27,673 bases of DNA from Pseudobdellovibrionaceae bacterium (lineage in GTDB: Bacteria > Bdellovibrionota > Bdellovibrionia > Bdellovibrionales > Bdellovibrionaceae), in contig JBIKLL010000030.1 in NCBI GenBank assembly GCA_044359815.1, positions 1 to 27,673 on the forward strand, given 5' to 3'. Each line of letters starts with the position of its first letter. The first letter of the stretch is position 1. The notes under the pieces were generated by a model that worked only from the letters and a program-made list of their open reading frames with translations, ran no database searches and was not told the DNA's origin. Below are positions 367 through 18,921 of this stretch, one piece after another. The translations under genes and the position numbers were made by a program.

Positions 367-1104
367 CTACTGCGGCCCAAAGGCATACAGCAGGGTTCCG
401 CCCTTTAATAGATCGATCACCCTTGTGCGGTTTTGCATCGAAATCGCGGGGCAGCCCCAACTGCGGCCCTGAATCACAGATCGATCCTGTACATAATCCG
501 CACCATGGATGACGACGGCTCGGCTGCGAGCATTTGAATTGCTGGTTGATAAGCCATCAAGCCTTAGCGAATATCCATGTTTGCCGCTATAAGTTTCTGC
601 AGCCTTATATGGACCCAGTGACGAAGCATTAGATCCTGATTTATTACTGAATTTTTCGGCATAGCCATCGTGATTGGCATCAGAGCCTTTACCATGTGCT
701 GTATGCAGGGCCCAAACCGCGCCCGTGTTCAGATTGATAATAAAAAGTCTTTTGCGCTTTGAGCTTTTTCGAAAATCTATGATTGCTATATGACGGTTGT
801 TATTAAACCTGGATTTGTTGGCATCATAAAAAGCCACTGTCCTGGCCAACAATTTGGGATCGATTTCTTTATTAGGATCCAAGTGCGAATAAGATTCAGG
901 CAAAATTTCAGGTTCAGTTAACTCTTGATCAGGCGACGTAATGATGTCGGGCTCACCCTGTGAGTCACCGTCGCGGTCAGGATTGTTTGCCGATTCATCG
1001 CTGGGATCATCGGGTAAAAATTCGGCAGAAATATTGGGCTCAGAACAACTGGTTAATGCAAAGGTAGTAAACATCAAAATGCCAAGGCTGATTGAAAGTT
1101 TCAT
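367..1104 (-). CDS. L,D-transpeptidase catalytic-domain (YkuD-like) lipoprotein
   Basis: Lipobox LTSC, acidic linker, DFRKSSKRKRLF, HGKGS, and catalytic VIHGA...GRSWGCPA (HxxxxSxGC-type). Start placed at MKLSIS behind GGAGG; the ORF track starts at 1116. Confidence 0.85.
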   Translation of the reverse strand: MKLSISLGILMFTTFALTSCSEPNISAEFLPDDPSDESANNPDRDGDSQGEPDIITSPDQELTEPEILPESYSHLDPNKEIDPKLLARTVAFYDANKSRFNNNRHIAIIDFRKSSKRKRLFIINLNTGAVWALHTAHGKGSDANHDGYAEKFSNKSGSNASSLGPYKAAETYSGKHGYSLRLDGLSTSNSNARSRAVVIHGADYVQDRSVIQGRSWGCPAISMQNRTRVIDLLKGGTLLYAFGPQ

Positions 1105-1140
1105 TCTTTCCTCCATGAAAGATTGTTTTCAAACGTCTGC

Positions 1141-1158
1141 TTAGACAAATTGTCTCAA
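1141..1158. promoter_or_regulatory. Palindromic putative operator upstream of the L,D-transpeptidase gene
   Basis: TTAGACAAATTGTCTCAA, core AGACAA-A-TTGTCT, about 40 bp upstream of the start codon. Confidence 0.3.
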
Positions 1159-1263
1159 TTTATTTGGGGACAGCAAAAGGCCTGCTGGACCTAATCTCGC
1201 CGTTTTTGATTTGCACTAAGGCTTGGTGGGACCAGCTTGTGAGTATTTAATTTAATTTCAGTT

Positions 1264-1773
1264 GAAACCTTCATTAGATTTAGTTTTTTTGGCTCTAAGA
1301 ATAAGATTTTTCAAAATCTTTCTTAAACTGGCCCACTTGGCTTCGGTTACTTTGAATTTTAAAAAATATTTCTATGATTTTACATCTTGTTAATACTTGC
1401 TAACGGCCGCAAGCTCATCTCTCGTATTGCTTGCATGCAAAGGTAATTTGTTTTTACTGTTTTTAGACACATGCAGCGAGCGTGCGGGGCATATCTGGTG
1501 TTGAGTCATTTTATAAAAGCAAAAGAATTGCTTTTATAAAATGAATCAATACGAGAGATGAGCCCGCGGCCGTTAGCGAGTGTCTAAAAATAGTGAAAAA
1601 AATTATCTTTGCATTTACGCATCACGAGATATGCGTCGAAAAATTAAACGTCGCGCTCGCAAATGTATTCACAAGATGTAAAATCATAGAAATATTTTTT
1701 AAAATTCAAAGTAACCAAAGCCAACGGTGCCATCTAGAATCTTGTTCCAACAGAATGAAAAACTAAATCTAAA
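1264..1773. repeat. ~510-bp multi-palindromic non-coding element (structured ncRNA or ssDNA-folding non-autonomous element)
   Basis: Inverted-repeat pairs: 1274-1288/1758-1772 (15/15), 1299-1308/1738-1747 (9/10), A 1337-1390/1671-1724 (53/54), B 1396-1429/1547-1580 (31/34), C 1435-1470/1580-1614 (32 matches, 3 G-T, 1 bulge), D 1476-1486/1649-1660, E 1489-1500/1623-1634 (11/12), hairpin F 1501-1522/1528-1549 (21/22). No ORF of 60 aa or more. The repeats are certain; the function is not. Confidence 0.9.
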
Positions 1774-1787
1774 TAATTTCAGTTCAT

Positions 1788-2069
1788 CTACAGATTATTG
1801 AGTGATTTACCCATGGATTCGATTTCTTTTTTGAATTCTGCAAAAACGGCTTCTTCGATCATGGCTCTGGTTTCTTGATTTAGGGGATGGGCGATGTCGC
1901 GGAACTGTCCGTCCTTGCGTTTTTTACTGGGCATGGCGACGAATAATCCGTCAGTTCCTGCGATGACTTTTAAATCGCGGATCACAAAACATTCATCAAT
2001 GGTAATGGTGACATAGGCTTTCAGGCGTTCCTCATTAACAGGGAACACTTTGACTTCGGTGATTTTCAT
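1788..2069 (-). CDS. spoVG: SpoVG family nucleic-acid-binding regulator
   Basis: MKITEVKV...LKAYVTITID..FVIRDLKVI.G..GLFVAMPSKK.KDG.FRDIAHPLN matches the SpoVG pattern. SD AAGGAG precedes the ATG at 2069. Confidence 0.95.
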   Translation of the reverse strand: MKITEVKVFPVNEERLKAYVTITIDECFVIRDLKVIAGTDGLFVAMPSKKRKDGQFRDIAHPLNQETRAMIEEAVFAEFKKEIESMGKSLNNL

Positions 2070-2119
2070 AGATGACTCCTTGTTGCAAAATCTATTGCGG
2101 GGCTCTCGCCACAAGAAAT

Positions 2120-2147
2120 CTATCGGACGAAGGTCTAGGTAGCTTTA
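2120..2147 (-). promoter_or_regulatory. Putative sigma28 (FliA) promoter of spoVG
   Basis: Minus strand reads TAAA-N16-TCCGATAG, about 50 nt before the start. Confidence 0.6.
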
Positions 2148-2181
2148 TAGGTTATCTGGTTTCTGCAGCTAACATTAAGGA

Positions 2182-3261
2182 TTATTGTCTTTTTTTAGGA
2201 CGTTCACCGACTAAAACTGAGAGTTTTTTTGGACGCCCGTCGCGCAGCACTTCAACGTCTATTTTTGAACCAATTTTGGCATCGCCCACCAGATCCCTCA
2301 GGTCATCCGATGATTTTACTTTTTTGCCGTTAAATTTAACCACAATGTCGTAAATTCTTAAACCACTGCGATCAGCAGGGCTGCCCCTTTCGATCCCAGC
2401 TACGACGGCACCATCAGTGTCCTTTAATCCCAACTGTTTTGCTGCAATCACATCTAAATCTGCTAATCCCACACCCAAAAATCCCCTAACAATCTGACCG
2501 TTTTTTTCAAGCTGAGGAATAATAGTCTTAACGTCATCAATAGGAATGGCAAAACCAATGCCCTGTGCCCTGGCATCAATGGCCGCATTAACCCCGATGA
2601 CCTGTCCCCGCAGATTCACCAATGGTCCTCCGGAATTTCCGGGATTAATGGGAGTGTCTGTTTGGATTAATGGAAATTTATTAATTTCGCTTAAGGCTCG
2701 GCCCTTGGCGCTGATGATACCCTTTGCCATTGAATGACCTTGGCCAAAGGGATTTCCAAAAGCCGCCACCCATTCTCCGACCTCAAGCTCGGTCGAAGAG
2801 CCCAACGTCACAGCCGGAAGTTTTCCATCATGGGAAATTTTAATCAGAGCTATGTCGGTTCTTTCATCGCCACCGATGACCTTGGCCTCATATAATTTGG
2901 TGCTGGATTCTGATAGCTGAATCTGGATCACATCAGCACCTGCAATGACGTGATTGTTTGTTACAATTAATCCGTCATCCCTGATTATAAATCCCGAGCC
3001 CAAAGATTGTTGTGGCCGATTATAGGGAGTCATCGGGAATCCATAAAATTGTTCCAGCATTTCCATCATAGGGTCACGCATGCGACCCTTTTTGGGCGCT
3101 GAGCTGGTTGAAATATTAACGATGGATGGATTGATTAATTTTGCCAATTCGACAAAAGCATTTACCGGCAAGGGGTCGTTCATTTTTGTCGTCGGTAATT
3201 TGCTTTGAGCAAATCCAATCGAAGCCACACAAATAGACAAAGCCAAAATTAACAGTTTCAT
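2182..3261 (-). CDS. HtrA/DegQ-family periplasmic serine protease with a single PDZ domain
   Basis: Signal peptide; GSGFII, TNNHVI, TDIALIKI, INPGNSGGPL catalytic triad; one C-terminal PDZ. Start placed at MKLLIL behind GGAGG. Confidence 0.95.
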   Translation of the reverse strand: MKLLILALSICVASIGFAQSKLPTTKMNDPLPVNAFVELAKLINPSIVNISTSSAPKKGRMRDPMMEMLEQFYGFPMTPYNRPQQSLGSGFIIRDDGLIVTNNHVIAGADVIQIQLSESSTKLYEAKVIGGDERTDIALIKISHDGKLPAVTLGSSTELEVGEWVAAFGNPFGQGHSMAKGIISAKGRALSEINKFPLIQTDTPINPGNSGGPLVNLRGQVIGVNAAIDARAQGIGFAIPIDDVKTIIPQLEKNGQIVRGFLGVGLADLDVIAAKQLGLKDTDGAVVAGIERGSPADRSGLRIYDIVVKFNGKKVKSSDDLRDLVGDAKIGSKIDVEVLRDGRPKKLSVLVGERPKKRQ

Positions 3262-18345: not shown

Positions 18346-18921
18346 TTAACCCGATGAAAACTCTTTTAACAAAATACCTTTGCTGATCAGCACCCTTGCC
18401 ATTTGTCGGTGGGTGCCCAAGCCTTCCCATTGATTGATTTGCAGATAATCTTTTAAATTTAAAAAATATTTAAACGAGTTCACAATCCTAGTGTAAGGGC
18501 GGTAGTCCCAAAATTTCAGTCTTGGAGCGCCTGCATTGGTCCATCGGCTGACCCCTGTGATTCTGATTGCGATGGCCGCAGTCAATGCCCTGATAAAGGG
18601 TTTGTACAGATGGCGTTTGGTAACCTGCAATTGAAAATGCAAATGATTACCGACGTTTGCCAATGAAACAATTCTAACTGCGAATCTTTGCCCAAATTTT
18701 TGAGCCAATTGATAAATCATTTTTTCGTTCTGTGATTTTCTGAATGACCAGGGGCCGCTGGCTTTGCTGGATCGCAATACCAGATGCATGGTGTGTTTGG
18801 TGCTGATGGGACGACCGTAACTGCGCCCTTTTCTTTTCGTCATAAGACTTCCACCATAGCCACCGGCTAAGGTGGAGAATTCTTTGTGGGACAGAGAATG
18901 TTGATGTGATGAGCGCTTCAT
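18346..18921 (-). CDS. HUH (Y1) nuclease of the IS200/RAYT-like transposase family
   Basis: MHLVLRS, NVGNHLHF (HUH), FW..RPY.RIV, and LKDYLQIN (catalytic Tyr in a Y-x-x-x-N helix). No tnpB next to it. Confidence 0.8.
   Translation of the reverse strand: MKRSSHQHSLSHKEFSTLAGGYGGSLMTKRKGRSYGRPISTKHTMHLVLRSSKASGPWSFRKSQNEKMIYQLAQKFGQRFAVRIVSLANVGNHLHFQLQVTKRHLYKPFIRALTAAIAIRITGVSRWTNAGAPRLKFWDYRPYTRIVNSFKYFLNLKDYLQINQWEGLGTHRQMARVLISKGILLKEFSSG

What the first reader, a model, noticed from the sequence alone, without database searches (positions are those of the whole stretch)
1264..1773. ~510-nt non-coding element of permuted inverted repeats, with three mutually crossing helices inside a long closing stem
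Seen: the left half reads A(1337-1390) B(1396-1429) C(1435-1470) D(1476-1486) E(1489-1500), then hairpin F(1501-1549). The right half reads B'(1547-1580) C'(1580-1614) E'(1623-1634) D'(1649-1660) A'(1671-1724), with further outer pairs out to 1274/1772. A simple palindrome would return E' D' C' B' A'. Here B, C and D/E all cross each other. If all pair at once, a single strand forms two four-way junctions (A-B-C-D and B-C-E-F) joined by three arms, two of nearly equal length (34 and ~35 bp), with a few shared bases at the junctions (GTGT 1580-1583, CAA 1547-1549) that could branch-migrate. Otherwise it has three alternative nested folds (A+B+F, A+C+F, A+D/E+F). Most mismatches are G-T/G-U compatible, more of them on the + strand. 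Inference: one inversion or duplication does not easily give this block order, so it may be a selected structure, such as a large pseudoknotted ncRNA, a multi-state switch, or an ssDNA-folding mobile element. I do not recognise it as a known family.
Basis: partly seen in the sequence, partly recalled or inferred. Interest (0 to 1): 0.9.

Follow-up and report, generated by a model that had tools for sequence, protein, structure and literature searches.

The report
Nested palindromic intergenic repeat element
The odd "crossing" inverted repeats are one copy of a repeat found about a hundred times in this genome, built from two copies of one lopsided hairpin unit nested head-to-head; it is a new family of a familiar kind of bacterial repeat, not a knotted RNA.

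Summary
The block order A B C D E F B' C' E' D' A' is real and far beyond chance. It is not a unique structure. It is one copy (family unit 1326-1735) of an interspersed palindromic repeat with 109 places on 63 of 125 contigs of the same genome, with 129 copies of its 35-nt core motif. The basic short form (~266 nt) reads arm A, P, M, variable hairpin, m', R', arm A'. The window's long form is a second such unit, inverted, nested inside a Q/Q' hairpin of the first. That nesting alone produces the crossing complementarities. The lowest-energy fold of RNA or DNA is one nested rod. Compensatory change is abundant in the arms (47 of 58 pairs) and the central hairpin (11 of 19), and absent in helices B and E (0 of 47). 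Arms evolve in concert within a copy, while the interior is ~96% identical between copies. Copies sit at gene 3' ends, 42 of 66 between convergent ORFs. I found no target-site duplication, no linked transposase, no Rfam hit and no relatives outside the genus except a sibling organism in one metagenome. It most resembles REPIN/BIME-type repeats. How it spreads and what it does remain inferred.

The parts
1253..1263 (.). 11-nt exact direct repeat TAATTTCAGTT, left copy; brackets the whole palindromic stretch
   Evidence: D2. Not a family property: among 27 copies the longest flank repeats (mean 7.4 nt) resemble mismatched-flank controls (mean 7.0). 7 of 702 control pairs reach 11 nt or more.
1274..1308 (.). 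Locus-specific outer palindrome, left arm (pairs with 1738-1772)
   Evidence: I5, 35 nt, 77%; exact 15-mer 1274-1288/1758-1772. No other genomic copy of this sequence. At least 11 of 28 complete copies have their own copy-specific extension.
1326..1394 (+). Arm A, the left arm of the family unit; terminus consensus A-R-C-TGGCCCACTTG
   Evidence: A at position -3 in 36 of 42 termini. Compensatory changes in 47 of 58 A/A' pairs.
1395..1429 (+). Outer unit: P (1395-1415) plus M1 (1416-1429). This is the 35-nt near-invariant core motif.
   Evidence: 129 occurrences in the genome at 6 mismatches or fewer, 54 of them exact.
1430..1470 (+). Q, left arm of the hairpin that holds the inner unit
   Evidence: The distal 19 pairs with Q' are 100% paired, 17 of them invariant.
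1471..1581 (-). Inner unit, inverted. On the + strand it reads R (1471-1489), m2 (1490-1503), S hairpin (1504-1546), M3' (1547-1560), P' (1561-1581).
   Evidence: The reverse complement aligns colinearly with a short-form core: 92 of 136 columns for the window, and 109 of 136 for an X65-type copy. PM motifs always converge and are never direct.
1582..1619 (+). Q', right arm of the Q hairpin
1620..1664 (+). Outer unit, right side: m4' (1620-1633) plus r' (1634-1664, the long 31-nt variant of R')
   Evidence: A 13-nt indel separates the r' and R' variants among copies.
1665..1735 (+). Arm A', the right arm
   Evidence: Within-copy arm identity is 93.8% against 77-78% between copies.
1738..1772 (.). 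Locus-specific outer palindrome, right arm
1774..1784 (.). 11-nt direct repeat, right copy; lies 3 nt from the stop codon of the SpoVG gene
1788..2114 (-). Upstream neighbour, SpoVG-family gene; its 3' end lies 55 nt from the family unit
   Evidence: PF04026, 111.9 bits.
367..1116 (-). Downstream neighbour, L,D-transpeptidase (YkuD_2) gene
   Evidence: PF13645, 175.6 bits.

Best explanation
Window 1326-1735 is one 'long-form' copy of a genus-restricted interspersed palindromic repeat.

Anatomy. The basic unit is asymmetric: P, M, a variable hairpin, m', R' (about 133 nt), held between two AT-rich arms A/A'. In the long form a second unit, inverted, sits at the tip of a Q/Q' hairpin inside the first. 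The crossing helices follow from this. B is outer P-M against inner M'-P'. D/E is inner R-m against outer m'-r'. They are by-products of the nesting, not a selected pseudoknot. As a single strand, RNA or DNA, the element folds into one imperfect rod of about 200 bp.

Shown.
- The family, its anatomy and the nested origin of the block order.
- Concerted evolution of the two arms of each copy.
- Near-identity of the interior among more than 100 units.
- Placement at gene 3' ends, mostly between convergent genes.
- No target-site duplication, and termini that are the least conserved part.

Inferred.
- Arms are kept complementary by recombination or conversion between them at the DNA level. This also inverts the interior and the hairpin loop.
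- The interior is held constant by sequence-specific selection, most likely a protein that reads the imperfect P/R'-M/m' section, and/or by exchange between copies.
- Transcripts from the flanking genes end in or are processed at the rod, so the element acts as, or is tolerated as, a two-way transcript-end hairpin.
- Spread was not by a cut-and-paste DDE transposase. It more likely resembled REP/REPIN-type hairpin elements.
For: Family. 84 BLAST matches in the own genome, 95 places, and 109 places on 63 of 125 contigs, totalling 23.8 kb or 0.8% of the assembly. 36 of the 109 places are at contig ends.

Anatomy. Module parse of 28 complete copies. PM motif 129 times. PM motifs only in converging pairs. 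The inner unit, reverse-complemented, aligns colinearly with the short-form core, 109 of 136 columns.

Fold. One nested rod, z -21.8 for RNA and -20.0 for DNA.

Covariation in 25 long forms (alignment A1). Compensatory pairs: A 47 of 58; S stem 11 of 19; Q 3 of 40; B 0 of 35; E 0 of 12; D 1 of 11. In 28 core units (A2), 15 of 36 predicted pairs carry both-side changes, 13 of them in the variable hairpin.

Arms. Identity 93.8% within a copy against 76.8-78.5% between copies; the partner arm is the nearest neighbour for 39 of 56 arms. Mismatches show no wobble or strand bias: 64 transversions, 30 and 38 transitions on the two strands.

Gradient of between-copy identity: outer arms 55%, inner arms 84%, interior 96-97%, central hairpin 74%.

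Context. 42 of 66 internal places lie between convergent ORFs (background 432 of 2645, p 9e-18) and 4 of 66 between divergent ORFs.

Target-site duplication. None as a family property.

Sibling organism. 8 metagenome contigs with flanks 87-96% identical carry the element at orthologous sites. Orthologous inner arms match at 347 of 360 positions, outer arms at 213 of 246, flanks at 2076 of 2245. The interior is inverted relative to the flanks in 2 of 4 pairs inspected, and the subtype differs in 4 of 4.

Loop orientation. Flipped in 2 of 31 X65 hairpins with a recognised loop, and in 2 S hairpins read by eye.

Independent assemblies. Logan contigs of runs X1 and X2 join both flanks to the arms (700-1374 and 1687-2400, 0 differences). 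Unitigs cover 1444-1511, 1482-1575 and 1550-1616.
Against: Mobility itself is not shown. I found no empty site, no insertion polymorphism, no target duplication and no transposase next to or matching the element.

The single RAYT-like gene is flanked by a different REP. The 8 Y1-like paralogues are not flanked by the element, and their family is multi-copy in 24 of 40 relatives that lack it.

The interior is 96-97% identical among copies whose arms differ by about 25%, and it keeps fixed mismatches (3 in M/m', 3 in Q/Q'). That points to a sequence-specific function I cannot name. It could be an RNA function.

B, D and E are almost invariant, so covariation cannot exclude them. M1/M3' pairs 14 of 14 whereas M1/m4' pairs 11 of 14.

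All assemblies are short-read. With arms that are perfect inverted repeats of about 50 nt, the orientation and subtype of an individual interior may be mis-assembled. The 'flip' between orthologues is therefore provisional. No contig spans the window's interior.

The terminator or RNA-end role is inference only. No T-run follows the rod consistently.
Confidence: 0.7

Rival explanations
1. A family of structured non-coding RNA genes. The rod, or part of it, is transcribed from its own promoter in the arms. The invariant imperfect section (P/R', M/m', Q) is the functional part and binds a protein or target. The variable stems need only pair.
For: Invariant, partly unpaired interior next to stems that vary with compensation. 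Orthologous inner arms are at least as conserved as the coding flanks. Promoter-like hexamers occur in both arms: TTCACA-17-AATATT facing outward, and TTGAAT-15-TATGAT facing inward (read).
Against: Stem mismatches show no G-U excess and no strand bias, as expected for DNA-level pairing. Orientation relative to the flanks appears to flip. The promoter scan found 3 sites against 2.5 expected in shuffles. There is no Rfam family. About 100 loci sit exactly at gene 3' ends, which fits repeats better than genes.
Confidence: 0.13
2. One reading: a single strand forms all of A, B, C, D/E and F at once (two linked four-way junctions or a pseudoknot), or switches between three nested folds, and this topology is the selected feature.
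For: All the complementarities exist. B is 98.6% paired in M1/M3' and 90% in P/P' across 25 copies, and E is 96% paired. The arrangement is the same in every long form.
Against: The arrangement follows automatically from nested inverted units. There are 0 of 47 compensatory pairs in B and E. Variants in outer P (TT to CC in 3 of 25 copies, read) are not compensated in P'. The allele differences match P to R' of the same unit, not P to P'. The nested rod is the lowest-energy fold. Short forms lack the second unit yet are equally conserved.
Confidence: 0.04
3. An ordinary MITE: a deletion derivative of a DDE-transposase insertion sequence, moved in trans through its terminal inverted repeats.
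For: Long inverted arms, high copy number and intergenic location.
Against: There is no family-wide target-site duplication. The termini are the least conserved part and the centre the most. No copy carries or adjoins a transposase; 3 of the 109 places overlap an ORF call by more than 60 nt. The palindrome runs on into copy-specific flanks in at least 11 of 28 copies.
Confidence: 0.06
4. Assembly artefact of a short-read metagenome bin.
For: 36 of 109 places are at contig ends. No Logan contig spans the interior.
Against: The same architecture appears in 25 aligned full copies and in a separate assembly of a sibling organism with both flanks present (L043). It also appears in unitigs of 4 runs from 4 studies.
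Confidence: 0.01

Closest known systems
REP / REPIN elements with RAYT transposases. I saw the search listing and abstract starts of PMC3116915 and PMC3337134. Further properties are recalled.
   Same: Extragenic, hundreds of copies, hairpin-forming. Built from inverted GC-rich motifs with a spacer. No target duplication. Vertically inherited and shared with a sibling organism. Common between convergent genes.
   Different: Units here are about 133 nt in elements of 266-426 nt, against roughly 20-40-nt REPs in about 100-nt REPINs (recalled). The two sides of the unit (P against R', M against m') are not copies of each other but fixed, different sequences. The genome's one RAYT-like gene is flanked by another REP family. 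No sequence similarity.
BIMEs, bacterial interspersed mosaic elements of enterobacteria (recalled; no paper read)
   Same: A mosaic of a few conserved motifs in alternating orientation joined by set linkers. Several size classes built from the same modules. Located at 3' ends.
   Different: Here the modules are nested (unit within unit inside long arms) rather than strung in tandem. Different sequence and a different lineage. Binding of IHF or gyrase is unknown here.
Bacterial MITEs such as Correia and ERIC elements (review PMC3184786, seen in the listing; properties recalled)
   Same: Non-coding inverted-repeat elements of 100-400 nt in intergenic DNA that fold into long hairpins when transcribed.
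   Different: No target duplication, termini poorly conserved, no parent insertion sequence found.
Flip/flop hairpins of parvovirus and poxvirus termini (recalled analogy only)
   Same: The loop, and apparently the whole interior, occurs in both orientations between inverted arms.
   Different: A chromosomal repeat, not a replicon end. Flips are rare (2 of 31 X65 loops), and at the level of whole interiors they may be assembly choices.

Membership tests
Any Rfam family | Covariance-model score at or above the curated gathering score | tested here: not met
   9 matches at E of 1 or less, all plant or animal miRNA-precursor models or a viral frameshift element. The best scored 51.9 bits against a gathering score of 245.
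MITE (DDE-transposon derivative) | Target-site duplication of fixed length flanking each copy | tested here: not met
   across 27 copies the longest flank direct repeat averages 7.4 nt, against 7.0 in 702 mismatched-flank controls. One search found no consistent repeat at palindrome limits.
MITE (DDE-transposon derivative) | Terminal inverted repeats conserved as the transposase-binding ends | tested here: not met
   between-copy identity is 55% in the outer arms, 84% in the inner arms and 96-97% in the interior; conservation stops 3 nt outside TGGCCC.
MITE (DDE-transposon derivative) | A parent insertion sequence with the same ends in the same or related genomes | tested here: inconclusive
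   All 109 places are short non-coding copies. The assembly is 91% complete and fragmented at repeats. No relative carries the element.
REP/REPIN | Association with a RAYT gene that is itself flanked by the repeat | tested here: not met
   The RAYT-like gene C8:9500-10140 (NF047646, 72.5 bits, cut-off 80) is flanked by a different REP with about 38 other places. No PM motif lies within 4 kb of it.
REP/REPIN | Two inverted copies of one short REP forming a hairpin; extragenic; no target duplication | tested here: inconclusive
   Extragenic and without duplication: met. The inverted partners P/R' and M/m' are related but fixed as different sequences (M and m differ at 3 of 14 positions in all copies). 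The unit is several times larger than a REP.
IS200/IS605-type palindrome-associated elements | A Y1 (HUH) transposase gene linked to, or co-distributed with, the element | tested here: not met
   9 PF01797 matches in the genome. None is flanked by the element. The 203-aa paralogue family is present in 24 of 40 relatives that lack the element.
   B 0 of 35, E 0 of 12, D 1 of 11 in a single sequence. Most of these pairs never vary, so the test has little power.

The most novel reading that the evidence does not exclude
The invariant, deliberately imperfect section (P/R', M/m', Q/Q', with fixed mismatches) is a docking site read in folded single-stranded form by an unlinked enzyme, for instance one of the genome's many Y1/HUH-like proteins. 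That would make this a REPIN-like within-genome replicator several times larger than known ones. It would nest into the hairpin tips of its own kind, invert between its arms, and have been kept for a long time at the ends of convergent genes as a two-way transcript stop.
Probability: 0.2. Interest if true: 0.65.

Novelty: new variant of a known kind. Interest (0 to 1): 0.38.

Why it matters
It shows that a striking 'pseudoknot-like' permutation of inverted repeats can arise simply from nesting an asymmetric palindromic unit inside another. That is a useful caution for scans for structured RNAs.

The family itself is a clean natural case of three processes acting side by side in one element: concerted evolution of paired arms, near-freezing of an imperfect core across more than 100 copies, and occasional inversion. 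It occurs in an uncultured lake bacterium.

If the core proves to be a recognition site, it would extend the REP/REPIN idea to much larger, nested units without a neighbouring transposase.

In practice the family also explains much of this bin's fragmentation: 36 of 109 places lie at contig ends.

Tried and rejected
- Rfam: nothing above threshold.
- BLAST of the element in 40 relatives: 0 matches.
- Covariance model R1 of the 133-nt unit in 120 further genomes of the same family: 0 matches at E of 0.01 or less. Stricter filters applied, and only 27 candidates per genome were scored.
- Motif scan of species-representative genomes: one hit, inside what I read as a ribosomal protein L27 gene of an unrelated MAG. 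I take it as a chance match; the gene name is my reading of the translation, not a tool result.
- Viral contigs: 0.
- Target-site duplications: none.
- Link to Y1/RAYT genes: none.
- Earlier notes of this scan: nothing on this genome.
- RNA evidence: no RNA holder listed among 24 runs, so expression is untested.
- No Logan contig spans the interior.
- A 'skips 222' joint (1429 to 1652) in X1 and X3 comes from short-form copies elsewhere, not from this locus.
- The count of structure pairs failed because I mistyped the structure length. I counted pairs with my own script instead.
- My first register for helix D was off by one and was corrected.
- The local P hairpin is only weakly supported. 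Alleles are TT/AA 62, TC/GG 51, TT/GG 5, CC/AA 10 and TT/AT 1 of 129; it amounts to essentially two haplotypes.
- An attC-like reading: I saw no match to the recalled R''/R' consensus by eye, and did not test it formally.
- Literature: two searches (Bdellovibrio + palindromic + repeat + intergenic; MITE + convergent genes + hairpin + terminator) listed nothing describing this family.
- I did not establish the organism's taxonomy.

Full report
**What is in the window.** The strongest are:
- A: 1329-1396 against 1665-1732 (68 nt, 93%).
- B: 1395-1429 against 1547-1581 (35 nt, 3 mismatches).
- F: 1490-1522 against 1528-1560 (33 nt).
- C: 1416-1453 against 1596-1633, and 1451-1470 against 1580-1599.
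- E: 1489-1500 against 1623-1634.
- D: 1476-1484 against 1652-1660 (my first register was off by one).
- An outer pair, 1274-1308 against 1738-1772.

The stretch folds far better than shuffles: RNA -208.3 kcal/mol, z -21.8; DNA -130.8 kcal/mol, z -20.0. The claim that mismatches are mostly G-T compatible does not hold. In the window I count 9 G-T on the + strand, 5 on the - strand and 20 others (with D corrected by hand).

No ORF of 40 aa or more is shared with other copies. The neighbours are a SpoVG gene (1788-2114, -) and an L,D-transpeptidase gene (367-1116, -).

**It is a repeat family.** BLAST against the window's own genome (2.95 Mb, 125 contigs, 41% GC, 91% complete) gave 84 matches. 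That amounts to 95 places with one query and 109 places on 63 of 125 contigs with the core query, in all 23.8 kb or 0.8% of the assembly. 36 of the 109 places touch a contig end.

The shared unit corresponds to window 1326-1735. Conservation stops 3 nt outside the motif TGGCCCACTTG. The outer 1264-1325 and 1736-1773 have no other copy. Rfam has nothing above threshold.

**Anatomy and the origin of the block order.** Parsing 28 complete copies shows a short form of about 266 nt. It reads: arm A; P (21 nt); M (14 nt); a hairpin X of 65 nt or 43 nt; m' (14 nt); R' (19 or 31 nt); arm A'.
- M and m are versions of one motif that differ at 3 fixed positions.
- P and R' face each other as an imperfect section.
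- The 35-nt P-M motif occurs 129 times and is almost invariant.

The window's long form reads A, P, M1, Q, [R, m2, hairpin, M3', P'], Q', m4', r', A'. The bracketed part is a complete unit in reverse orientation. Reverse-complemented, it aligns colinearly with a short-form core (109 of 136 columns for an X65-type copy, 92 of 136 for the window).

P-M motifs always occur as converging pairs, never as direct repeats. Nesting an asymmetric unit, inverted, inside another necessarily makes outer P-M complementary to inner M'-P' (helix B) and inner R-m complementary to outer m'-r' (helices D and E). Both cross the Q/Q' helix (C). So one nested inverted duplication does give the observed order.

**Which helices are supported.** The lowest-energy fold of both RNA and DNA is a single nested rod: A, then M1-Q with Q'-m4', then m2-hairpin-M3'.

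Compensatory pairs in an alignment of 25 long forms (A1):

| Helix | Pairs with compensatory change |
|---|---|
| A | 47 of 58 |
| Central hairpin stem | 11 of 19 |
| Q | 3 of 40 |
| B | 0 of 35 |
| E | 0 of 12 |
| D | 1 of 11 (one sequence) |

In 28 aligned units (A2), 15 of 36 consensus pairs have both-side changes, 13 of them in the variable hairpin.

The two allele classes of P (cols 17-18, AA or GG) go with AT or CC in R' of the same unit in 28 of 28 rows (9 and 19). This fits pairing within a unit, and it puts mismatches into helix B. Because B, D and E hardly vary, this is weak evidence against them, not proof.

**How the family evolves.**
- The two arms of one copy are 93.8% identical, while arms of different copies are 77-78% identical. 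The partner arm is the nearest neighbour for 39 of 56 arms.
- Arm mismatches show no wobble excess and no strand bias: 64 transversions, and 30 and 38 transitions. This points to pairing kept at the DNA level rather than by selection on one RNA strand.
- In at least 11 of 28 copies the palindrome continues into copy-specific sequence beyond the family terminus. The window's 1274-1308/1738-1772 is such an extension.
- Between-copy identity rises from 55% (outer arms) through 84% (inner arms) to 96-97% (interior). It drops to 74% in the central hairpin.
- This conservation pattern is the reverse of that in transposase-driven MITEs.
- There is no family-wide target-site duplication. The window's 11-nt direct repeat (1253-1263, 1774-1784) is a local oddity; 7 of 702 control flank pairs do as well.

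**Distribution.**
- BLAST found nothing in 40 relatives: 24 of the same family and 16 of the same order.
- A covariance model of the unit found nothing in 120 further genomes of the family (filtered search).
- An exact-motif scan of species-representative genomes gave one chance hit. Viral contigs gave none.
- A metagenome scan gave 8 short contigs of one assembly. Their flanks are 87-96% identical to this genome, so they come from a sibling organism with the element at orthologous sites.

In 8 orthologous arm pairs, inner arms match at 347 of 360 positions, outer arms at 213 of 246, and flanks at 2076 of 2245. I dropped one spurious regex hit, one non-orthologous row and 6 rows without an orthologous flank. 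The copies therefore predate the split of the two organisms, and the inner arms are at least as conserved as the mostly coding flanks.

In the 4 pairs I inspected base by base, the interior lies in the opposite orientation in 2 (L043/C110 and L050/C49), and the subtype (r' or R', 43- or 65-nt hairpin, deletions) differs in all 4. The hairpin loop is flipped in 2 of 31 X65 units with a recognised loop.

One caution applies. Both assemblies are short-read, and arms can be perfect inverted repeats of about 50 nt. The orientation and subtype of single loci may therefore be assembly choices.

**Genomic context.** I used my own crude ORF calls (90 aa or longer). Of 66 places with two neighbours, 42 lie between convergent ORFs (background 432 of 2645 intergenic gaps, binomial p 9e-18), 20 lie between co-directional ORFs and 4 between divergent ORFs. 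Among 28 complete copies the arms often begin 3-20 nt from the stop codons. The window's copy follows the 3' end of SpoVG by 55 nt.

**Independent sequence support.** Six lake-water runs from six studies hold half or more of the sampled words of window 700-2400. In runs X1 and X2, contigs join the left flank to position 1374 and the right flank from 1687 with no differences. Unitigs cover 1444-1511, 1482-1575 and 1550-1616. None spans the whole interior. Summed depth in the interior is up to about 300 times that of the flanks.

**Search for a mobilising enzyme.**
- The genome has 9 matches to the Y1 transposase family.
- One is a RAYT-like gene, flanked on both sides by a different, short REP that has about 38 other places.
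- Eight are paralogues of a 203-aa distant Y1-like protein. They are not flanked by any interspersed repeat.
- That family is multi-copy in 24 of 40 relatives that lack the element.

No link to the element was found.

**Verdict.** The stretch is a copy of a new, lineage-restricted palindromic repeat family, and its permuted block order is the signature of one asymmetric unit nested, inverted, inside another.

It most resembles REP/REPIN and BIME elements in life style and mosaic build (abstract starts of PMC3116915 and PMC3337134 seen; the rest recalled). It fails the tests for membership of those families, of DDE-type MITEs and of any Rfam family.

Two things stay unexplained: why some 200 nt of imperfectly paired interior are kept almost identical in more than 100 copies, and how the element spread.

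Noticed in passing
G000 contig C8:9474-10300 (not in the window): A RAYT-like gene (NF047646, 72.5 bits; cut-off 80) is flanked on both sides by a 25-38-nt REP (GAAAAAGTCGTACGGTCTCTTTTC...). That REP has about 38 further places in the genome. This is a second, unrelated and classical REP/RAYT system.
   Followed up: partly
G000 C48:48186-48794, C49:93340, C23:210, C47:11973, C100:636, C56:3008, C8:23385, C125:2390: Eight paralogues (87-93% amino-acid identity) of a 203-aa distant Y1_Tnp-like protein. Each has a conserved promoter-like block and is preceded by a different 7-8-nt tandem repeat (for example CTAACTAT, CCCGATT, TTGGTTGA). The family is multi-copy in 24 of 40 relatives.
   Followed up: partly
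window 18427-18873 (-): A more distant member of the same Y1-like family (35% identity to the paralogue query). The 149-aa piece I submitted had no Pfam hit at E of 0.001 or less.
   Followed up: no
window 1253-1263 and 1774-1784: An exact 11-nt direct repeat, TAATTTCAGTT, brackets the whole palindromic stretch. It looks like a target duplication but has no counterpart at other copies.
   Followed up: yes
window 1178-1192 (-): A terminator-like hairpin with a T-run on the minus strand. It lies downstream of the element and about 60 nt upstream of the L,D-transpeptidase start codon.
   Followed up: no
G000 C48:47641-47955: A tandem repeat with a period of about 85 nt, upstream of one Y1-like paralogue (self-hits).
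   Followed up: no
G000 C62:2032-2164, C107:28852-28984, C46:4117-4249: Units that combine 'outer-type' and 'inner-type' alleles of P and R' (TT..GG with CCCC..AAATG). This suggests recombination between unit types.
   Followed up: no
G000 C52:42854, C9:13707, C6:21215: Units whose central hairpin (77-81 nt) has a quite different sequence between the same M and m' motifs. The hairpin therefore behaves like a replaceable cassette.
   Followed up: no
G000 C124:63799-64229: The palindromic extension of this copy contains the TAA stop codons of both convergent neighbour ORFs at mirror positions. The element's ends may supply stop codons (read by eye).
   Followed up: no
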